A DNA stretch of 58,666 bases from a virus. Under the pieces are notes generated by a model that was given only the letters and a program-made list of their open reading frames with translations, was not told where the DNA came from and made no database searches. The DNA lies in the UHGV virus genome UHGV-1373577; one strand, given 5' to 3'. Within the stretch, counting starts at the first letter, position 1. Each line of letters starts with the position of its first letter. Below, in pieces: positions 1 to 58,666 of this stretch. Made by a program: the position numbers and the translations under genes.

Positions 1-60
1 GGACGGCCCCCGACCATGACGACGACGAACGAGGACGGCCCCCGACCATGACGACCTACG
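1..60. repeat. Tandem imperfect ~32-bp repeats (ggacggcccccgaccatgacgacgacgaacga, then ggacggcccccgaccatgacgacc...) that include the start codon of gene 48..2030. Same unit recurs at the window end.
   Basis: Direct reading: nt 1-32 and 33-56 are near-identical. Nt 58635-58666 is a third copy. Confidence 0.6.
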
Positions 61-2030
61 ACGTGTACTCGAAGAGGGGCGCCGACAACCGCTTCGCGCC
101 CAAGGCGAGTGTCGACGCCCTCACCAATGCCCAGGTCGCCCAGGGGGCCGAGATAGGGACCCTCAAGGAGCAGGTGCGGGCCCAGCTGCTCCTGTCGAAC
201 ATGCTGCCCCGTCAGGGGGGCCCGGGCACCCCCAGCGCCCTCGTCGTCGGGTTCATCGGCGATTCCTGGAGCACCCCCGGCGCCGGAGGCCAGGGGGGCG
301 CCCCCGAGGAGGCGACCATGGTGTCCGTCGCCGCTAAGAGGCTCGGTGTCGGGGCCGCGGTCAGCGGGCAGGGGTCCACGGGCTGGGCCCATGTCCCCTC
401 CCCGCAGGGCAGCACCGGGTTCTTCAGCGCCCCTGAGCGTGTCGACGCCGTCCTCGACGCCCACCCGTCCCTGCTCGTCGTCGTCGGCTCCGTGAACGAC
501 AACTGGGCGATCGACCAGCCCCCGACCCCGGCCGACCCCGCCTCCGGCCCCAGAGCCATCAGCCAGTCCGTCAAGGCCCTTGTCGATCGCGTCAGAGACC
601 GGGCCCCCGCCCTGCCGATCATCGTCGTCGGGCCCCAGCCCACCTCCGAGTACCGCACCTACGCGGGCTCCAGCCACAAGAGCGCCGCCGCGGTCAAGGC
701 GGGTGTCGAAGCCGCCGGGGGCCTCACGAATGGGATCTGGTTCAGTGACTGGCTCGGTGTCGCGACCAGCCCGGCCACCAGGTGGGACCCGGCCTCATCG
801 CCCAACCGGCACTGGGGGCGGGGCGAGATCATCTGCTACGACGGGGTGAACTACGAGGTGACGGCCGACGCCTGGGTCCCGGGCGCGAACCCCGACGCCG
901 CCGACCCCTACCTGGCGTCGTTCCTGCCGTCGGCGCCGGTGTCGAGGAGGACGGCGGTCCTGTCGGGGCGGGGGGCCGTCGGCAAGACCCCCGCCAGCGG
1001 GACCCGGGCGCTGTGGCTCATGAACGACGAGACGCACGTGAACGTGGGCGGGGCGCAGGCGTTCGGCGTCGAGCTGGCGGACCGGGTCATCGAAGGAACT
1101 CAAGCCCTCCGGGACTGGATCATCGGGCAGGGCCCCGTGGTCGTCCGCCCGGCGCCCCCGCCCGCCCCTCCGCCGCCGGGGCCCAACCCCCCTCCGCCGC
1201 CCGCCCGGCCCACGGGGGCGCTGGCCGACGTGCGCGACGCGCGCTGGGGCGTGAAGTGGGGGGCGCTGTCGGCCACTGCGCTTCAGGGGGCGCTGTCGCA
1301 GCTGCCGGAGGGCGCGGCCGTGAGGGGGTCCGCAGCCCTGCCCGTGCGCATGAGCAAGGACGAGGGCGCGGACAGGTTCGTGACGTCCACGGTGTCGTCC
1401 ATCACCCCGAAGGGCGGCGGTGCGGCCGTGCGCATCAACCAGTCCACCATCGCCCAGCTCAAGGCCGTCGAGGACGTCAACGGGGTGGTGGCGACCCTGG
1501 GCGAGGCGCTCGACATCCTGGACGCCGCACCCGCGCGCACCCCGATCATCGTGGAGTGCATGGACACGTCGAACGACATCATCGCGGACTACTGGGTGTA
1601 CGACCAGAAGATGATGCAGTACCTGCTGGGGCGCTACGGGGCCCGGGCCGCCGAGCGGGTCATCGTCGCCACCAACGGGACGCTGAACGCGGCCAGGAGC
1701 AAGGCGAAGGCGGATGCGGCGCTGAAAGTGCTGCCCCGCCTGGCGTACAAGCCGTCCGGGCCGTGGACCGCCGAGGACGTGGGCGCCCTGAAGGCCGTGG
1801 ACATGATCGCCTGCCGGTCGAACGACACCTCCAAGCCGGAGGTGCTGGCGGCCATCAAGAACCACCCGGAGAAGCCGGGGCTGTGGTGGGCGGGCATGAC
1901 GACGGCGGCGCACGTCGACGCCGCCAAGGCGGCGTCGAAGGCGGCGGGGCTGGCGATCGAGGGCTGGATCATGGAGGCGAAGGAGGCCGCTCCGGGGGCC
2001 CTGTCGACGGCGCTGCCCGTCAGGCCGTAG
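48..2030 (+). CDS. SGNH/GDSL-hydrolase-like esterase (candidate LysB-like lipolytic lysis protein or virion enzyme). Has a Pro-rich linker and a C-terminal domain of unknown function.
   Basis: 660-aa ORF. VVGFIGDSWST (GDS block I) and VVVGSVNDN (GxND block III) motifs. PAPPPAPPPPGPNPPPPPARP linker. Sits immediately upstream of the endolysin. Confidence 0.5.
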   Translation: MTTYDVYSKRGADNRFAPKASVDALTNAQVAQGAEIGTLKEQVRAQLLLSNMLPRQGGPGTPSALVVGFIGDSWSTPGAGGQGGAPEEATMVSVAAKRLGVGAAVSGQGSTGWAHVPSPQGSTGFFSAPERVDAVLDAHPSLLVVVGSVNDNWAIDQPPTPADPASGPRAISQSVKALVDRVRDRAPALPIIVVGPQPTSEYRTYAGSSHKSAAAVKAGVEAAGGLTNGIWFSDWLGVATSPATRWDPASSPNRHWGRGEIICYDGVNYEVTADAWVPGANPDAADPYLASFLPSAPVSRRTAVLSGRGAVGKTPASGTRALWLMNDETHVNVGGAQAFGVELADRVIEGTQALRDWIIGQGPVVVRPAPPPAPPPPGPNPPPPPARPTGALADVRDARWGVKWGALSATALQGALSQLPEGAAVRGSAALPVRMSKDEGADRFVTSTVSSITPKGGGAAVRINQSTIAQLKAVEDVNGVVATLGEALDILDAAPARTPIIVECMDTSNDIIADYWVYDQKMMQYLLGRYGARAAERVIVATNGTLNAARSKAKADAALKVLPRLAYKPSGPWTAEDVGALKAVDMIACRSNDTSKPEVLAAIKNHPEKPGLWWAGMTTAAHVDAAKAASKAAGLAIEGWIMEAKEAAPGALSTALPVRP

Positions 2031-3847: not shown

Positions 3848-4066
3848 GTGGGCGCCTACAGCAAGAAGACATTCTGGATGGGGGTCGCCGAGCGGGCGAC
3901 CAAGACGTTCGCCCAGGCGGCCGTGGCGGCGATCGGCACGGCGGCGCTTCTGAGCGAGGTGAACTGGGTGGCGGTGGGTTCGACGGCGGCGCTGGCGGCG
4001 CTGCTGTCGGTGCTCACCGCACTGGGTGATCCCAAGGCGACCGACATCGCCGTCGCGCAGGGCTGA
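3848..4066 (+). CDS. Holin, phage_r1t-like (two transmembrane segments).
   Basis: GTG start after RBS ggaaggagg. MGAYSKKTFWMGVAERATKTFAQA matches the r1t-holin N-terminal signature. Hydrophobic stretches follow. Directly downstream of the endolysin. Confidence 0.6.
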   Translation: MGAYSKKTFWMGVAERATKTFAQAAVAAIGTAALLSEVNWVAVGSTAALAALLSVLTALGDPKATDIAVAQG

Positions 4067-4133
4067 TCCCCGCACCGCGAACCGCGCCCCCGGCACCTCA
4101 CAAGGGTGCCGGGGGTTCTTCGTGTCCGCCACT

Positions 4134-4454
4134 TTTCCACAGGGTTTTCCACAGGTGGTGTCAACCTTGGTTGCTGAGGGGTGTCTCATGCCACACCAAT
4201 GTGGTCGGGGTCATAGGGGCTCGGGCTTTCGTTGGAAAACCGCCAAAACGCCCTGTGCACGAAGTTGGGGATAACTTGTGGATAAGTGGCCTCCTGACGG
4301 GGGGCAACTGACCATTAGAACTACCGTTCTAATCGGCCCTCCACAGAACCCCTAATTTTGTCCACTTCTGCGCCCACAAGCTAAACCGTTTTAGTACACA
4401 CGGCCATCCACAGGCAAAGCCGCGTCATACCAACGAAAAGTGGGGTTATCCACA
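4134..4454. promoter_or_regulatory. Cluster of six DnaA-box-like 9-mers in an AT-richer non-coding island.
   Basis: TTTTCCACA x2 (4134-4153), TGTGGATAA (4277-4285), TTGTCCACT (4368-4376), CCATCCACA (4404-4412), TTATCCACA (4446-4454). Confidence 0.4.
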
Positions 4455-4605
4455 GGAAAACCCGCTTACTACTACTACTTCTACCTCTTACATACCGCGG
4501 AGAAGAAAAAAGAAGAGCCGTCGTACAGGGGCTCCACCCCCGGCCACCACGGTCGCTTGCGAGCGGGTAGGATGTGTGCTAAGGCAGCACAGACGAAAGG
4601 GCGCC

Positions 4606-54676: not shown

Positions 54677-55250
54677 TTTTCGGTTCCTTTCGGAATTGGG
54701 TGGGGATGATAATGGGTGCCCGGTCCTCTTCTGACAGAGTCCTCTCGTCACCATGCGGGTGACCGGGGCGGTTCTGAGCCGTCCGCTCGGTGTTACCGGG
54801 CCGCGTATTTCGTCTTAAATCCGTTCATCTCACGCCCCAGGACCGTTCTGGGCGTCCCACGACATATGATGATACGGGCTCCCGGTCCCCTTGGGGACCG
54901 GTCCTGCGCATCGTCGTGGGCGTCCGCACGGCCCTATGGGCACGGATCGCGTCTGGCTCGCCAGCCGCTCGCGGTAATTTTTAACCGTCTATTGCATTAC
55001 CGCGAATATGTAGTTCTCAATCTTCCCGGGGTAAGGATGAGACCGGAGGACTTCGTCCTCGCTCTCTTCCTCCCCTTTGTGATGACTCCAGTCTAGCGCG
55101 CCTGTTGGGGTTTGTCTATGCTTGATTCTGTGTTCTACGTCTCTTTGAGGTTTGAGGTTCAAACTCGGGAGTTCGTCCGCCGGATGGCGGGGCCGACAAA
55201 TGCTCGTCCTGTTCGCGCGCTATGCAGTTGTGCTGAGTCGCGCCCGCCGG

Positions 55251-55303
55251 AGGAATCGAACCCCCGGGCCCGCCGTCATGGGCGACGGCGGGCGACCATC
55301 CGG
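55251..55303 (-). ncRNA. tRNA-like minihelix E (53 nt). Acceptor GCCCGCC/GGCGGGC, joiner with a CGCC-CATGAC-GGCG hairpin, T-arm GGGGG-TTCGATT-CCTCC (one G-U pair).
   Basis: Read on the - strand, 14 nt after the stop of gene 55317..55655. Confidence 0.4.
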
Positions 55304-55316
55304 GCTGTAGCGGGGC

Positions 55317-55655: not shown

Positions 55656-56389
55656 CTCGGTGTTCCCTTCGATCGGTGCTCCTTGCTGACGGGTATAAAT
55701 GTACTCGCCCCGTGAGGGCTGGTCAAGGGGTGAGGGCGGTTGTGGAGCGTGTTCTGCGTCTCATTTTGAGTTGGGGGCGGGGATGAGGGCACGACTCACT
55801 TCGTGATCTCGACAATCCCCGGGGCGCACGGATGATGCTCGTCAGTTTCACGTGAAACATATGAGTAGGGAATGGCGGGGTATGGGGCGGGGAGTCGACA
55901 TGCGCTTGGCTGCCTTGCGTGCTCCTGCGTCGCACGCGCGTCTCGCCAGCGCGTGACCTAGAGCACATAGAAGCGGGGATGCACAAGGATGGGGGTAAGG
56001 CAAGGGACAAAAGTCCCGAAGAGAGGATTGGGTTGGTTGGGGGTAGGGCGAAAGTTTCGGGTAGCCGAAACATGGTATGTGTGACGTAGGTATGTGCGGC
56101 GTGGTATTACGTCTGGCGTATCATCCTCGGGGAGGAGAAGTGTGATGGAGAAGACATACATTTGGGGGTAGACAGAATGACTTGGGTATGCTATGGAGAA
56201 TGAGATGGGGATCACAGGGGATGAGGGTTGAAGATAACGTTGTTATGTGTATGTGTGAGTAGCAATCTCGCGTGAGGGTGGGTTGGGAGTATGGAAATCT
56301 CGTCCCAAAAATAGTGAAGTTCGGGTAAATGTGACTTGGACCATATGCATAAAGATACGGTTGAGTGCATATTGCGTTATCTTCGTAAT

Positions 56390-56465
56390 AGATGATGATG
56401 ATGATGATGATGATAGATGATGATTGATGATATATGATAGATGATAATAGATGATAGACGATGAC
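56390..56465. repeat. (GATGAT)n microsatellite degenerating into GATAGATGA variants.
   Basis: gatgatgatgatgatgatgatgatagatgatgattgatgatatatgatagatgataatagatgatagacgatgac. Confidence 0.8.
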
Positions 56466-56525
56466 TATATTTGGTAAACGATAGTCTTTAATCCTGCGTT
56501 TACTATTTCCTGTTCAACGCTAAAT

Positions 56526-56620
56526 GTGACCTAAGTTACGTTATCTATTTTTGACTTTGTGACCTGGGTTACGTTAACTATTCTTGATTGTGGCCTGGCT
56601 CACGTTTATCTATATTTGAC
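56526..56620. repeat. Three tandem iteron-like repeats of about 32 bp (GTGACCTRRGTTACGTTAWCTATTYTTGA).
   Basis: gtgacctaagttacgttatctatttttgac / gtgacctgggttacgttaactattcttgat / gtggcctggctcacgtttatctatatttgac. Confidence 0.7.
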
Positions 56621-57768
56621 GGCCTTTTACGCATACGTCGGCCTCGGATTGGTACTCATTAGACAAGCGTCGAATTAGCCTTTCACGCTGGGTTGAAACG
56701 ATTCGAAGCCGAATCGTCGCTGTACGGGGCCTAGAACGGCCCATACCCCTACCCCCAGGCAGTTACACCGACCGGGGTGAGTTAGGCCGCCAGCGTGGCT
56801 TACAGCGCGTCGGAGACCCATATGGGCCTGCCTCAGTACACACCCATGCACACGCACGCGCGCGTGATAGCACCATAGGGAGGAAAGTGCAAGGGTGAGT
56901 TTGTGTGCGGTGAGTCATGTGTCTTGACACAGTGTGTGTGAGCAAGGCAACAAATTAGTGGGAGTGCCCCATCGTTTCGATTTGGGGTAGGAGCTGCGTT
57001 CCGCCCACGGGGACCTTTCGTTGGCACCGTAGGGAAAGGTGCCGATAAGTACCGTTATGACAATTTACTTAGCAGACTATCTACATACCGGGGAGTTTTT
57101 GAGCGGGGCATTTTAGTGCGTGCGTGGGAGAAAATCAATGTGACGTCGCTCGCAGCCGGGCGAAGGCGAAATCGGATGCTCTCGACGACGGGGCGTGGCA
57201 CGCGGGTGTGAGGTCGCTCATCTTTCCCCGCACCCTACCCACCTAAACCCCCAACTTCCCTACTCGCCTAGCAGAGTGTCGACTGATCCGTCAAAACGGC
57301 CCTCCTCGCCTCCCGAGACCCAATATAAGTTTATGCACTCTTTTTATCCATGGCTGCATAAACGTGTTCCACGTCACGAGTACTAAACCAGCCCCTTCAG
57401 CCACACAAACCCCGCCCGTACCATAGGACTTCGGACCCATCACCCCGACCTACTCCAGCCATCTCAACGAAAAGTCCCCCTTAGGCCACCCTAAGAAAAT
57501 CCTGCATATTTCCTATGCACACCCATGCATAAAACCCTAATATTTCGGCCTTGTCCGCAATCTGAGATTTTCGCCGAATATGTCTACTGCGTCACACTTT
57601 TTTATCCACTCAACCCCCTCCTCTCCTCAGTACCTATCTGTTACTGGTGTGACTCCACATCATCAAACACACCCCATCAGCACCAAACATCTTGATTCCT
57701 CGAAGACAGTTACCCGTGCGGCCTGTGTGACTAAGCCCGACCGCAAAACCCCTCTCCACCATCATCAA

Positions 57769-58050
57769 GGGGGTGTCGATGCCTCCTAGGCCCCGAAACC
57801 CCGATACAACTTCTCTGTTTACTATGCGAACCCCTTCCTCCTCTTCTTTCGCCCCCTCCTCCTGAGCCCCGCCAGTCACAGCCCGGCCCTCAGCCCTTCC
57901 GCGCCCCGCCGACCCGGCCGTCCGCTTCAACGCCCTCTCCTCAAGGGCGGGGGTGTCGACAAACCCCCTTGACAGTCCGCCAACACCGGTTATAATCGCG
58001 CGCCCGCGCACGCGCGGTAATAAGAAGGAGAAGCCGGAGGGGGTGTCGAA
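57769..58050. promoter_or_regulatory. Three spaced copies of AAGGG(CG)GGGGTGTCGA upstream of gene 58089..58631. Candidate operator, pac or ori protein-binding sites.
   Basis: caagggggtgtcgat (57769), agggcgggggtgtcgac (57948), ggagggggtgtcgaa (58038). Confidence 0.35.
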
Positions 58051-58088
58051 CCCCGAAACGGGCAGGAACCTCGTGATATCCTCAAGTC

Positions 58089-58631
58089 ATGCGGATCGAG
58101 ATCAAGCCGCCCTCCGGCGCCACCCCGCCCCTTCGGCCCGGGGCGCTCGTGACCCTCCGTGTCGAGGCCGCCGACCCGGCCCCGCGAATCGACGGCCCGG
58201 TGTCGATCGCCTACGAGGGCCGCTACGCCCCCGCCAACAACCCCCCGGCCTTCCTGTTCCCGGAGAAGGACCCCGCCCCGGGGGTGTCGACCGCCACCAG
58301 CGCGGCATCCGATTTCCGCACCCCCGCCGCCACCCCCTCATCGCCCCATGTCGACATTCCCGCCCACGAGGGCGACACGATCACGGCGACCCTCATCACC
58401 GCACCCCCGAACGCCAAGACCTACAGCGCGGCCCTCAGGGCCCCGGCCCCCGGAAACAACCCCCACCAGCCCGTCGAGATGACCCTCGTAGAAGGCGGCG
58501 CTGCACCGCCCACTCCGCCGACGCCGGGGCCGGCGCCCGGGCTGACCATCACCCCCGACGACCCCGACGACCCCGACGTGCTCACCCTCGACCCCGCCCC
58601 CGGCAACGACAACATCGTCGTCGTGGGCTGA
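58089..58631 (+). CDS. Pro/Ala-rich hypothetical protein. Adjacent to the esterase-like gene if the genome is circular.
   Basis: 180-aa ORF. Contains sense-oriented GGTGTCGA copies, like other + genes. Weak RBS. Confidence 0.4.
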   Translation: MRIEIKPPSGATPPLRPGALVTLRVEAADPAPRIDGPVSIAYEGRYAPANNPPAFLFPEKDPAPGVSTATSAASDFRTPAATPSSPHVDIPAHEGDTITATLITAPPNAKTYSAALRAPAPGNNPHQPVEMTLVEGGAAPPTPPTPGPAPGLTITPDDPDDPDVLTLDPAPGNDNIVVVG

Positions 58632-58666
58632 GAAGGACCCCCGACGACCATGACGACGACGAACGA
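58632..58666. repeat. Third copy of the ~32-bp terminal/tandem repeat, matching nt 1-32.
   Basis: gaaggacccccgacgaccatgacgacgacgaacga versus ggacggcccccgaccatgacgacgacgaacga at nt 1-32. Confidence 0.6.

What the first reader, a model, noticed from the sequence alone, without database searches (positions are those of the whole stretch)
55656..58088. 2.4-kb non-coding control region: iterons, a (GATGAT)n microsatellite and a G-run to C-run strand switch
This region sits between the divergent leftward and rightward gene blocks. It has no convincing ORF and GC below the genome average. It contains:
- Several canonical G-quadruplex-type runs on the + strand between about 55730 and 56300, for example gggaatggcggggtatggggcgggg.
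- A (GATGAT)8+ microsatellite at 56390-56465.
- Three 32-bp iterons at 56526-56620.
- C-rich + strand sequence (G-rich - strand) from about 56750 to 57500.
- Three AAGGG(CG)GGGGTGTCGA sites at 57769-58050.

Iterons with an adjacent strand-composition switch and a slippage-prone repeat are classic hallmarks of a replication origin or partition locus. The microsatellite could serve as a phase-variable spacer.
Basis: seen in the sequence. Interest (0 to 1): 0.65.

Follow-up and report, generated by a model that had tools for sequence, protein, structure and literature searches.

The report
Conserved non-coding control region of a phage
A 2.4-kb gene-free stretch between the early genes and the lysis/structural genes of an uncultured high-GC phage is a conserved, densely organised protein-binding control region that probably also holds the replication origin, and two mirror-image flanks of it are conserved in base composition but not in sequence.

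Summary
Window 55656-58088 is non-coding in this phage and in about 40 relatives.

What I found:
- **Iterons.** The three "iterons" are 3 of at least 11 dyad boxes matching TGTGA-N6-TCACA. Chance predicts 0.75. They keep their positions in relatives, with half-sites kept and spacers free.
- **Centre.** The boxes flank an AT-rich, C-free short-repeat tract. In other relatives this tract is a different cassette: ATAGATA-type, (TATAG)n, (TAG)9-15 or inverted (ATC)n.
- **Promoters.** Promoter-like sites face outward at both edges. Their hexamers are kept in relatives of the window type. A third, inward-facing site (TTGATT-17-TAGAAT) has invariant hexamers and a variable spacer in 22 variants.
- **Arms.** The G-rich and C-rich arms are as alike between clades as shuffled sequence, yet keep the same composition.
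- **Negative results.** No ORF, no Rfam family and no conserved RNA fold.

Best reading (about 0.45): a combined transcription-control region and replication origin. The origin function is inferred, not shown.

- A partition role is unsupported, since no ParA/ParB gene was found.
- The (GAT)8 run is length-stable, which argues against a slipping spacer.
- The skew polarity is that of a chromosomal terminus, not an origin.

The binding protein is unknown. Interest is moderate to high: a new variant of a known kind.

The parts
55698..55726 (-). Pleft: promoter-like site TTGACC-17-TACATT just upstream of the first leftward (early) gene
   Evidence: The hexamers are kept in relatives of the window type. 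A differently worded TTGACC-17-TACCTT sits at the same place in the distant clade (read directly).
55730..56390 (.). Left arm: + strand G-rich and C-poor (G/C 2.25), about 660 bp
   Evidence: The same profile appears in all relatives. Sequence identity to the distant clade is about that of shuffles, while composition is the same.
55748..55763 (.). Degenerate dyad box (CGTGT-N6-TCTCA; 3 mismatches in the window, 2 or fewer in 9 of 11 relatives)
55845..55858 (.). Perfect 14-bp palindrome GTTTCACGTGAAAC, a candidate operator
   Evidence: Unique in the window. Most relatives read carry one to three copies, including the distant clade.
55868..55892 (+). The only canonical four-run G motif on the + strand
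55952..55967 (.). Dyad box CGTGA-N6-GCACA
   Evidence: 11 of 11 relatives, spacer varies.
56141..56156 (.). Dyad box TGTGA-N6-AGACA
   Evidence: 8 of 11.
56201..56216 (.). Dyad box TGAGA-N6-TCACA
   Evidence: 11 of 11.
56330..56345 (.). Dyad box TGTGA-N6-CCATA on the left side of the AT-rich tract
   Evidence: 11 of 11.
56346..56373 (+). P_x: candidate inward (rightward) promoter TGCATA-16-CATATT (CATAAT in most relatives), abutting box 56330
   Evidence: The distant clade has TATAAT at the same relative place. Weak -35; tentative.
56300..56650 (.). AT-rich core (200-nt GC 0.345-0.43 in a 0.67 genome), a candidate unwinding element
   Evidence: GC is 0.27-0.37 in eight window-type relatives and 0.41-0.47 in the distant clade.
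56388..56465 (+). C-poor short-repeat tract: (GAT)8 followed by ATAGATGAT-type units
   Evidence: Replaced by other cassettes in relatives.
56525..56620 (.). Three tandem repeats of about 33 bp (the "iterons"). Each contains a dyad box, at 56525-56540, 56558-56573 and 56589-56604.
   Evidence: Three copies are seen in each of the 9 relatives where the array could be located, in two sequence types with different spacing.
56848..56867 (.). Alternating purine-pyrimidine CG/CA run ending in GCGCGCGTGATA
   Evidence: Read. The 12-mer at 56858 is shared by 14 of 15 sequences, including the distant clade. CACGCGCG-type words are enriched.
56937..56952 (.). Dyad box TGTGA-N6-CAACA
   Evidence: 10 of 11.
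57040..57240 (.). Most conserved block of the region. It is the longer of only two stretches BLASTN-alignable to the distant clade; the other is 56287-56320.
57110..57138 (-). P_C: inward (leftward) promoter-like site TTGATT-17-TAAAAT (TAGAAT in the 21 other variants)
   Evidence: The hexamers are invariant and the spacer varies in 22 unique variants.
57139..57154 (.). Dyad box TGTGA-N6-TCGCA, abutting the -35 of P_C
   Evidence: The box is missing in the distant clade.
57207..57222 (.). Dyad box TGTGA-N6-TCATC
   Evidence: 11 of 11.
57200..57960 (.). Right arm: + strand C-rich and G-poor (C/G 2.37), about 760 bp
57581..57596 (.). Dyad box TGTCT-N6-TCACA
   Evidence: 8 of 11.
57330..57362 (.). 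Inverted pair TTTATGCA ... TGCATAAA. All four TGCATAAA copies of the genome lie in the region (the other two are at 56346 and 57526).
57770..57779 (+). GGGGTGTCGA site 1
57950..57959 (+). GGGGTGTCGA site 2, about 10 bp upstream of the -35 of Pright
57969..57996 (+). Pright: perfect TTGACA-16-TATAAT, 92 bp upstream of the first rightward gene
   Evidence: Kept in relatives of the window type.
58040..58049 (+). GGGGTGTCGA site 3, in the leader downstream of Pright
58281..58290 (+). GGGGTGTCGA site 4, inside the 180-aa gene

Best explanation
The region is a conserved non-coding control region laid out roughly symmetrically.

**Shown**
- Outward-facing promoter-like sites sit at the two edges. Pleft leads into the early/replication block. 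Pright, a perfect consensus, leads into the GDSL-lipase, endolysin and structural block.
- Two arms of 650-800 bp carry mirror-image strand composition.
- An 800-bp centre holds an AT-rich, C-poor short-repeat tract, bracketed by dyad boxes of the form TGTGA-N6-(T/C)CACA: one on the left and three tandem on the right.
- There are at least 11 such boxes in all.
- A conserved promoter-like site, P_C, points into the centre.

**Inferred: how it works**
1. A dimeric or multimeric DNA-binding protein occupies the box array.
   - First candidate: the C-terminal winged-helix-like domain of the phage's own 812-aa primase/helicase, by analogy with phage P4 alpha protein and its ori/crr iterons.
   - Second candidate: a host CRP-family protein.
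2. This nucleoprotein complex opens the adjacent AT-rich tract. One strand of the tract contains almost no C, so it cannot fold on itself. That makes the centre the replication origin.
3. Inward transcription from P_C (and perhaps P_x) helps to open or prime the origin.
4. The arms are C-rich and G-poor when read as RNA running outward (C/G about 2.3). They would act as composition-coded, Rho-type termination zones. These would stop centre-derived transcripts from reading into the early genes or the lysis genes.

The origin function, the binder and the role of the arms are all inference.
For: **Non-coding and conserved**

**Box array**
- Eleven of the 15 genome-wide matches lie in 4% of the genome.
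- Shuffles that keep local composition give 0.75, with a maximum of 5 in 2000.
- The positions are kept in 8-11 of 11 relatives, with half-sites conserved and 6-nt spacers variable.
- The distant clade has 10-12 boxes against about 1 expected. Metagenome relatives have 8-12, random pattern hits mostly 0-1 and at most 6. Fifteen of 16 hits in L263 fall inside its gene-free gap.

**Origin-like core**
- The AT-rich core with three tandem boxes is found in every relative where it could be located.

**Promoters**
- The P_C hexamers are invariant and its spacer variable in 22 variants.
- Pright and Pleft.

**Arms**
- Composition is conserved without sequence conservation, and the skew is extreme.

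**Replication genes and the candidate binder**
- The phage carries its own PolA, primase/helicase and SNF2 helicase.
- The last ~75 residues of the primase are modelled as H-E-H-H-E-E with pLDDT 72-79. Their best PDB matches are MarR-type winged-helix DNA binders (probability 0.99-1.0, E 5e-3 and weaker).
- That tail is 80% identical between the two clades, which also share the box half-sites.

**Parallel in a cultured phage**
- Arthrobacter phage Amigo shares the layout. Its divergent gap holds tandem TTGTAC repeats plus DnaA-box-like palindromes.
Against: - There is no direct evidence of replication initiation.
- No initiator gene lies next to the region, and the adjacent genes are ORFans that vary between relatives.
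- No DnaA box lies in the region beyond chance one-mismatch hits.
- The boxes match a transcription-factor consensus. One abuts a promoter-like site at a class-II-like distance, which a purely regulatory reading explains equally well.
- The primase is 97-99% identical among relatives whose tandem boxes belong to two sequence types. There is therefore no co-variation signal.
- The winged-helix model comes from a single sequence, and the fold matches are weak (TM 0.40-0.46).
- P_x has a poor -35. Convergent P_x and P_C transcription would put positive supercoils on the centre.
- The role of the arms is untested. At 700 bp each, they are much longer than known rut sites.
Confidence: 0.45

Rival explanations
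1. Purely transcriptional control hub. The boxes are operators or activator sites for a CRP/FNR-like dimer, from the host or an unrecognised phage protein. This protein times the early and late/lysis promoters and the internal promoter. No origin lies here.
For: - The consensus TGTGA-N6-TCACA equals the CRP-family site, which is also used by actinobacterial Crp (PMC4218801, found).
- Many boxes have AAA/AAT on the 5' flank, as in the 22-bp CRP consensus (read).
- Box 57139 abuts the -35 of P_C, with its centre about 43.5 bp upstream of the estimated start. Box 56330 abuts candidate P_x.
- In the distant clade a box abuts the -35 of Pleft.
Against: - Only 2-3 of the 11 or more boxes sit next to a promoter-like site.
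- The three tandem boxes beside the AT-rich tract have none.
- The P_C box is missing in the distant clade although the promoter is kept.
- No CRP/FNR or HTH protein was detected in the phage.
- This reading does not explain the conserved AT-rich repeat tract or the arms.
Confidence: 0.25
2. Genome ends or packaging region. The physical termini (cos, pac or a terminal repeat) lie in the centre. The G-rich strands run 5'->3' toward the ends and act as polar, Chi-like protection or translocase-guiding sequences.
For: - The skew polarity converges on the centre, as at a chromosomal terminus.
- Several metagenomic contigs break inside or at the edges of the region.
- GGGGTGTCGA is a polar motif, with 10 of 11 copies co-oriented with the genes.
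Against: - Many contigs break instead at the tandem repeat at window 1-62, and complete contigs run straight through the region.
- In Arthrobacter phage Amigo, which has the same layout, the ends lie about 5.5 kb to the right of the divergent gap. By analogy the ends here would fall near 4.1-4.6 kb.
- No dominant G-rich word recurs in the arms.
Confidence: 0.08
3. Decoy or silencing target. The region titrates a host global regulator (CRP family), or it nucleates a host AT-binding silencer (Lsr2 type) on low-GC DNA.
For: - There is a dense array of sites for one protein.
- GC is 10-35 points below the genome.
- The same genome carries an optional DnaA-box cluster that looks like a titration site.
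Against: - The ordered layout is more than a sponge needs: promoters at the edges, a conserved internal promoter, the tract, and fixed box positions.
- The host and its regulators are unknown.
Confidence: 0.07
4. Non-coding RNA locus. The conserved blocks encode one or more functional RNAs, for example a transcript from P_C.
For: - P_C is a well-conserved promoter-like site with no ORF downstream.
- Conserved sequence islands lie downstream of it.
Against: - No Rfam family was found at gathering score or at E<=5.
- The consensus fold of the putative P_C transcript in 13 sequences is -0.2 kcal/mol, with no compensatory pair.
- Hairpins found in sliding windows occur on both strands, so they are DNA palindromes.
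- The arms cannot pair internally because one of G or C is scarce.
Confidence: 0.05
5. Partition (centromere-like) site of a plasmid-type prophage.
For: Repeated binding sites occur in an intergenic region.
Against: - No ParA/ParB, integrase or repressor family was detected in any scanned ORF.
- The gene content is that of a lytic replication module.
Confidence: 0.02

Closest known systems
Iteron-plus-AT-rich origins (phage lambda ori; phage P4 ori/crr bound by the alpha primase-helicase; plasmid F ori2 with RepE iterons containing TGTGAC). Recalled from established knowledge, not tested here.
   Same: - Tandem binding sites at a multiple of the helical repeat (33 bp) next to an AT-rich stretch.
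- Lambda iterons are also dyad-symmetric.
- P4 uses dispersed site clusters read by the C-terminal winged-helix domain of a primase-helicase of similar size.
   Different: - No initiator gene lies at or next to the site.
- At least 11 sites are spread over 1.7 kb.
- There is a swappable short-repeat tract.
- Skewed arms are present.
- Function is untested.
CRP/FNR-family operator, TGTGA-N6-TCACA (used also by mycobacterial Crp, PMC4218801)
   Same: - The same 16-bp dyad consensus, with A/T-rich flanks.
- One box sits about 43 bp upstream of a promoter start, like class II sites.
   Different: - Eleven or more sites lie in one non-coding stretch, most without a promoter.
- The right half-site is looser (NCACA).
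- No CRP-family gene was found in the phage, and the host is unknown.
[quoted passage not shown]
   Same: - Double-strand boxes lie next to a trinucleotide-periodic tract and AT-rich DNA.
- The distant clade carries (TAG)9-15, which equals 3'-GAT-5'.
   Different: - There are no DnaA boxes at the tract.
- The window's (GAT)8 has the opposite polarity to the trio consensus.
- Some relatives have 5-nt or irregular repeats instead.
Polyomavirus non-coding control region (NCCR) (PMC7762344)
   Same: A non-coding stretch between divergent early and late regions that combines bidirectional promoters with the origin. This is an analogy of layout only.
   Different: - Unrelated virus, proteins and motifs.
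- The region here is several times longer.
Divergent intergenic gap of Arthrobacter phage Amigo (cluster AK), NC_041949 52621-53605
   Same: - Same genome size and gene layout.
- The primase is 28% identical.
- Its gap of about 1 kb lies between leftward and rightward blocks and holds tandem short repeats and palindromes.
   Different: - Different repeats (TTGTACYGG) and DnaA-box-like palindromes.
- No skewed arms.
- No TGTGA boxes were noted.
Rho-utilisation (rut) regions of Rho-dependent terminators (established knowledge)
   Same: They are defined by composition (C-rich, G-poor, unstructured RNA) rather than by sequence. This matches arms that keep composition but not sequence.
   Different: - The arms are 650-800 bp, far longer than known rut sites.
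- Whether they are transcribed outward at all is unknown.

Membership tests
Iteron-type replication origin | Three or more tandem copies of a 16-22 bp initiator site at regular spacing | tested here: met
   Three copies of period 33 at 56525-56620. Three copies are seen in each of the 9 relatives where the array was located.
Iteron-type replication origin | Adjacent AT-rich unwinding element | tested here: met
   GC is 0.345 at 56300-56600 in a 0.67 genome, and 0.27-0.37 in eight window-type relatives.
Iteron-type replication origin | Cognate initiator (Rep) gene at or beside the origin | tested here: not met
   Adjacent genes have no family match and vary between relatives. The only candidate binder, the primase/helicase, is 20 kb away.
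Iteron-type replication origin | Supports initiation of replication | not testable with these tools
   This needs marker-frequency mapping or an autonomous-replication assay.
DnaA-dependent origin / basal unwinding system | DnaA box within about 16 bp of at least 3 trinucleotide trios (NAN, consensus 3'-GAT-5') | tested here: not met
   There is no exact DnaA box in the region. All four exact TTNTCCACA copies lie at 4133-4454. The tract is trinucleotide-periodic with a central A, but (GAT)n has the opposite polarity to the consensus.
CRP/FNR-type operator | 16-bp dyad TGTGA-N6-TCACA | tested here: met
   Eleven sites with 2 or fewer mismatches against 0.75 expected.
CRP/FNR-type operator | Site centred near -41.5 or -61.5 of a dependent promoter | tested here: inconclusive
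   This holds for box 57139 with P_C (about -43.5) and box 56330 with candidate P_x (about -42.5). The other boxes have no promoter-like site beside them. Transcription starts are only estimated.
CRP/FNR-type operator | A CRP-family protein present in the phage or host that binds the sites | not testable with these tools
   None was found in the phage ORFs. The host was not identified.
Partition site (parS / centromere-like) | Linked ParA-type ATPase and ParB/ParR-type adaptor genes | tested here: not met
   No such family was found in any scanned ORF.
Phase-variable microsatellite | Repeat number differs freely among close relatives | tested here: not met
   The (GAT) run is n=8 in 7 of 10 relatives, 7 and 9 in two others, and interrupted in two. 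The variation seen is cassette replacement.
Canonical G-quadruplex cluster | Several G3+N1-7 x4 motifs | tested here: not met
   One motif on the + strand and two on the - strand. G-richness without canonical motifs is real.
Structured non-coding RNA | Known family match, or a conserved fold with compensatory changes | tested here: not met
Rho-dependent termination zone (rut) | C-rich, G-poor, unstructured transcript | tested here: met
   Outward RNA C/G is 2.25-2.37, against 0.85-1.28 in ten genes. Only the composition was tested.
Rho-dependent termination zone (rut) | Transcript ends depend on Rho | not testable with these tools
   This needs 3'-end mapping with and without Rho inhibition.

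The most novel reading that the evidence does not exclude
A new style of phage origin, with three linked features:
1. The winged-helix tail of a D5/P4-type primase-helicase reads an array of CRP-like dyad boxes.
2. The enzyme loads onto a C-free, short-period repeat tract. This would be a phage counterpart of the DnaA-box + DnaA-trio unwinding module, with interchangeable repeat cassettes.
3. Two mirror-image arms insulate the unit on both sides. Their function is coded only by strand composition, for example as bidirectional Rho-termination zones.
Probability: 0.15. Interest if true: 0.8.

Novelty: new variant of a known kind. Interest (0 to 1): 0.6.

Why it matters
- Phage genomes are tightly packed. 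A family that keeps 4% of its genome gene-free across clades must use that DNA.
- The region offers a compact natural system with several experimentally separable parts:
  - a large array of one dyad site with conserved positions;
  - a short-repeat tract that is exchanged as a cassette;
  - 700-bp flanks that are conserved in strand composition while their sequence has randomised.
- The last feature is rare, direct evidence for selection on composition itself. It would let Rho-type or other composition-read mechanisms be tested in an actinophage.
- If the centre is the origin, it would define how primase-helicase/PolA phages of high-GC Gram-positive hosts start replication. This is largely unknown.

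Tried and rejected
**Searches for known similarity**
- DNA similarity to 50,697 phage records in near and distant modes gave no match.
- Rfam at gathering score and at E<=5 gave nothing relevant.

**Structured RNA**
- Sliding-window consensus folding on both strands found only short palindromic hairpins.
- The consensus fold of the putative P_C transcript showed no structure.

**Hidden coding sequence**
- No frame stays clearly open across relatives: only four short stretches (about 70-170 nt) pass the 80-codon test, and none shows codon phase.
- Substitutions show no codon phase.

**DnaA boxes**
- The region has only chance-level one-mismatch hits.
- The DnaA-box cluster at 4133-4454 was considered as the true origin. 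I rejected it as the family's origin because it is an insertion absent from 6 of 8 relatives.

**Motifs in the arms**
- A single recurrent G-rich word in the arms (Chi- or KOPS-like) was not found.

**Candidate binder**
- Co-variation of the primase with the repeat type gave no signal. The primase is 97-99% identical in all close relatives.
- A sequence match of the primase to solved structures was uninformative.

**Host identification**
- The endolysin gave no hit in 185,579 genomes.
- A DnaA-box-pair pattern hit many unrelated phyla.

**Other**
- Homologues of the conserved 241-aa neighbour gene are restricted to this phage group and have no domains.
- Literature searches for a described equivalent in actinophages found none.
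Full report
**Setting**

The window is a circular permutation of a complete phage genome of about 58.7 kb and 67% GC. Relatives align straight across the junction 58666->1.
- Rightward genes run from 58089 across the junction to about 29 kb. In order they are a 180-aa protein, a 660-aa protein (its homologue in related contigs carries a GDSL-lipase domain), an endolysin, a holin-like gene, then the terminase and structural genes.
- Leftward genes run from 55655 down to about 29 kb. They include many ORFans, an SNF2 helicase, an exonuclease with a Sak4-like annealing protein, Bro-N/Ant-like proteins, an 812-aa primase/helicase and a family A DNA polymerase.
- No integrase, repressor or partition gene was detected.
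- The finding therefore sits between the starts of the two divergent blocks.
- The nearest cultured phages, by primase at 28% identity, are Arthrobacter cluster AK phages of the same size and layout.

**The observation**

- The interval is non-coding.
  - ORFs inside it have GC3 of 0.57-0.65, against 0.8-0.96 in most called genes.
  - No long frame stays clearly open across relatives.
  - Substitutions among relatives are spread evenly over the three phases (29-38%). In the flanking lipase and endolysin genes 53-56% fall on the third position.
  - Independent gene calls on related contigs leave the gap empty.
- GC falls to 0.345.
- The quoted G-run is the only canonical four-run motif on the + strand.
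- The microsatellite is a perfect (GAT)8 followed by degenerate ATAGATGAT units.
- The three 33-bp repeats are real.
- The C-rich + strand starts at about 57200, not 56750.
- GGGGTGTCGA occurs four times around the rightward promoter-like site, and seven more times elsewhere.
- The skew is extreme. Twenty of 44 200-nt windows exceed the largest value (0.387) found in the remaining 55 kb.

**Relatives**
- Searches with flanking proteins and with a DNA pattern brought in about 40 related contigs from IMG/VR, ENA and Logan assemblies.
- A more distant clade was also found. Its primase is 77% identical, and its copy of the region was recovered in L097 and L099.
- Every relative that spans the site has a gene-free stretch of 2.4-2.7 kb with the same GC and skew profile.
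- Within the close clade the region is 65-89% identical. It is less conserved than the primase at 97-99% amino-acid identity, and it is mosaic, with two or three alternative versions of many segments.
- Between clades BLASTN aligns only window 57089-57215 and 56287-56320.

**What the "iterons" are**
- Each 33-bp repeat contains a 16-bp dyad TGTGA-N6-(T/C)(T/C)AC(G/A).
- Searching TGTGA-N6-TCACA with up to two mismatches gives 15 hits in the genome, which is the chance number. However, 11 of them lie in the 2.4 kb.
- Shuffles that keep local composition give 0.75, with a maximum of 5 in 2000.
- The sites hold their positions in 8-11 of 11 aligned relatives. Their half-sites are kept and their 6-nt spacers are free to vary. 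For example, at 55952 the spacer reads cctaga, tgcgga, cacggg, cgtatg or cgtagg. This is the signature of a protein-binding dyad.
- The distant clade has 12 and 10 such boxes against about 1 expected, while its coding DNA has about 5 per 20 kb.
- Metagenome relatives have 8-12 each, and chance pattern hits mostly 0-1, at most 6.
- In L263, 15 of 16 hits fall inside the gap.
- The tandem trio exists in two sequence types with spacings of 33/31 or 44/32 bp. All three copies change together within a genome.
- The consensus is that of CRP/FNR-family sites, which actinobacterial Crp also uses (PMC4218801).
- TGTGAC is also the core of some Rep-protein iterons. That is my own knowledge and was not tested here.

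**Promoters and other sites**
- Pright is a perfect TTGACA-16-TATAAT (57969-57996), kept in relatives of the window type.
- Pleft (TTGACC-17-TACATT, 55726-55698, minus strand) is also kept, and it has a reworded counterpart in the distant clade.
- A third site, P_C (TTGATT-17-TAAAAT; TAGAAT in the other 21 variants; 57138-57110, minus strand), points into the centre. Its hexamers are invariant and its spacer varies in 22 unique variants from both clades.
- Box 57139 touches the -35 of P_C. It is missing in the distant clade.
- A weaker candidate, P_x (56346-56373, plus strand), touches box 56330 and points at the repeat tract. The distant clade has TATAAT at the same relative place.
- A perfect palindrome GTTTCACGTGAAAC (55845) is unique in the window. 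Most relatives read carry one to three copies, including the distant clade.
- TGCATAAA (4 of 4 genome copies) and TATGCA (8 of 10) are confined to the region.

**The repeat tract**
- In most close relatives the (GAT) run is exactly 8 units. It is therefore not a freely slipping tract.
- Other lineages carry a different cassette at the same place:
  - a 150-bp ATAGATA-type tract;
  - (TATAG)n;
  - (TAG)9 or (TAG)15;
  - in L099, the window-type tract inverted.
- All versions are AT-rich and nearly free of C on one strand.
- (TAG)n equals the DnaA-trio consensus 3'-GAT-5' (PMC8287927). However, no DnaA box adjoins the tract, and the window's (GAT)n has the other polarity. I therefore treat this as a resemblance of design, not membership.

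**The arms**
- The left arm (55730-56390) has G/C of 2.25 on the + strand. The right arm (57200-57960) has C/G of 2.37.
- Between the window and the distant clade the arms are no more alike than composition-matched shuffles: 0.58 against 0.54, and 0.55 against 0.57. Yet their base compositions agree within 5 points.
- Composition, not sequence, is therefore what is kept.
- No single G-rich word accounts for the skew.
- Read outward, both arms would give C-rich, G-poor RNA that cannot fold. Rho-dependent terminators are the best-known elements defined in that way.
- The polarity (+ then -) is that of a bacterial terminus rather than an origin.

**Not an RNA**

No Rfam family matched. No conserved fold was found downstream of P_C. 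The hairpins that appear occur on both strands.

**Candidate binder**
- No HTH or CRP-like family was found in the phage ORFs.
- The last ~75 residues of the primase/helicase are modelled, from a single sequence at pLDDT 72-79, with the order H-E-H-H-E-E.
- Their best matches among solved structures are MarR-type winged-helix DNA binders (probability 0.99-1.0 but weak E-values and TM 0.40-0.46).
- That tail is 80% identical between clades.
- This is compatible with a P4-alpha-like arrangement (my own knowledge). It is weak evidence.

**Conclusion**
- What is shown:
  - a conserved, non-coding, multi-site protein-binding region;
  - promoter-like sites at both edges and one inside;
  - an AT-rich repeat tract bracketed by boxes;
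  - composition-coded arms.
- What is inferred:
  - the centre is the replication origin;
  - who binds the boxes;
  - the arms act as termination zones.
- I put the combined origin-plus-control reading at about 0.45 and a purely regulatory array at about 0.25. Termini, decoy, RNA and partition readings are well below that.
- The layout recalls the non-coding control region of polyomaviruses (PMC7762344) and the divergent gap of Arthrobacter phage Amigo, which holds its own tandem repeats.

Noticed in passing
window 4066-4576 (boxes at 4133-4141, 4145-4153, 4277-4285, 4446-4454; near-matches at 4266 and 4358): A second non-coding gap holds all four exact TTNTCCACA (DnaA-box) copies of the genome, plus two near-matches. 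It is an insertion of about 430 bp, present only in the window and in L003 and absent from six relatives. This looks like an optional DnaA-binding or titration module, or a captured piece of an oriC-like region.
   Followed up: partly
window-wide: 5476(+), 8725(-), 29194(-), 31684(-), 32425(-), 37325(-), 37401(-), 57770(+), 57950(+), 58040(+), 58281(+): GGGGTGTCGA occurs 11 times exactly, against about 0.25 expected. It lies mostly inside genes, in two reading frames, and 10 of 11 copies are co-oriented with the local genes. This is a polar, DNA- or RNA-level motif of unknown role. Four copies cluster around Pright.
   Followed up: partly
window 55240-55315 (-): ARAGORN calls a tRNA-Met (CAT) here. 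Rfam's tRNA model does not report it, even at E<=5; only a weak tRNA-Sec hit at 18.9 bits appears. The gene, and the 112-aa gene next to it, are missing at this place in several relatives.
   Followed up: no
window 1-62 and 58625-58666: A tandem repeat of about 16-32 bp (GGACGGCCCCCGACCATGACGACGACGAACGA-like) spans the junction of the circular permutation, just before the 660-aa gene. Many metagenomic contigs of relatives start or end within a few hundred bases of it, so it seems to break assemblies.
   Followed up: partly
window 54755-55240: Another gene-free stretch lies left of the tRNA. It is 70-79% identical even to the distant clade (for example ATATGTAGTTCTCAATCTTCCCGGGGTAAG). In the distant clade it carries a good TGTGA-type box and a further GTTTCACGTGAAAC palindrome. 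The control region may therefore extend beyond the reported left edge.
   Followed up: partly
L061:1677-4226: In the distant clade the SNF2-type helicase ORF is 849 aa, against 480 aa in the window. The extra part contains an LAGLIDADG-like string (LLAGLMDGDGS), which suggests an intein.
   Followed up: no
L142:6622-7606 (Arthrobacter phage Amigo NC_041949, 52621-53605): The divergent gap of this cultured phage holds about eight tandem TTGTAC(Y)GG repeats, a perfect TTATCCACA, and two TTCCACA..TGTGGAA palindromes. This is a possible origin or control region at the equivalent genome position. I found no description of it in the papers searched.
   Followed up: partly
L035-L038 (e.g. L036:41-4437): In these relatives the match to the 660-aa protein spans about 2.86 kb and the 552-aa phosphodiesterase-like gene starts at about 2.8 kb. 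The endolysin/holin pair seems not to lie between them as it does in the window.
   Followed up: no
L099 (upstream piece, about 2140-2200) versus L097/L136/L141: Two otherwise near-identical distant-clade genomes differ by a cassette of about 200 bp at the repeat tract: (ATC)n in one and (TAG)9-15 in the others. This points to recent replacement or inversion of the tract.
   Followed up: partly
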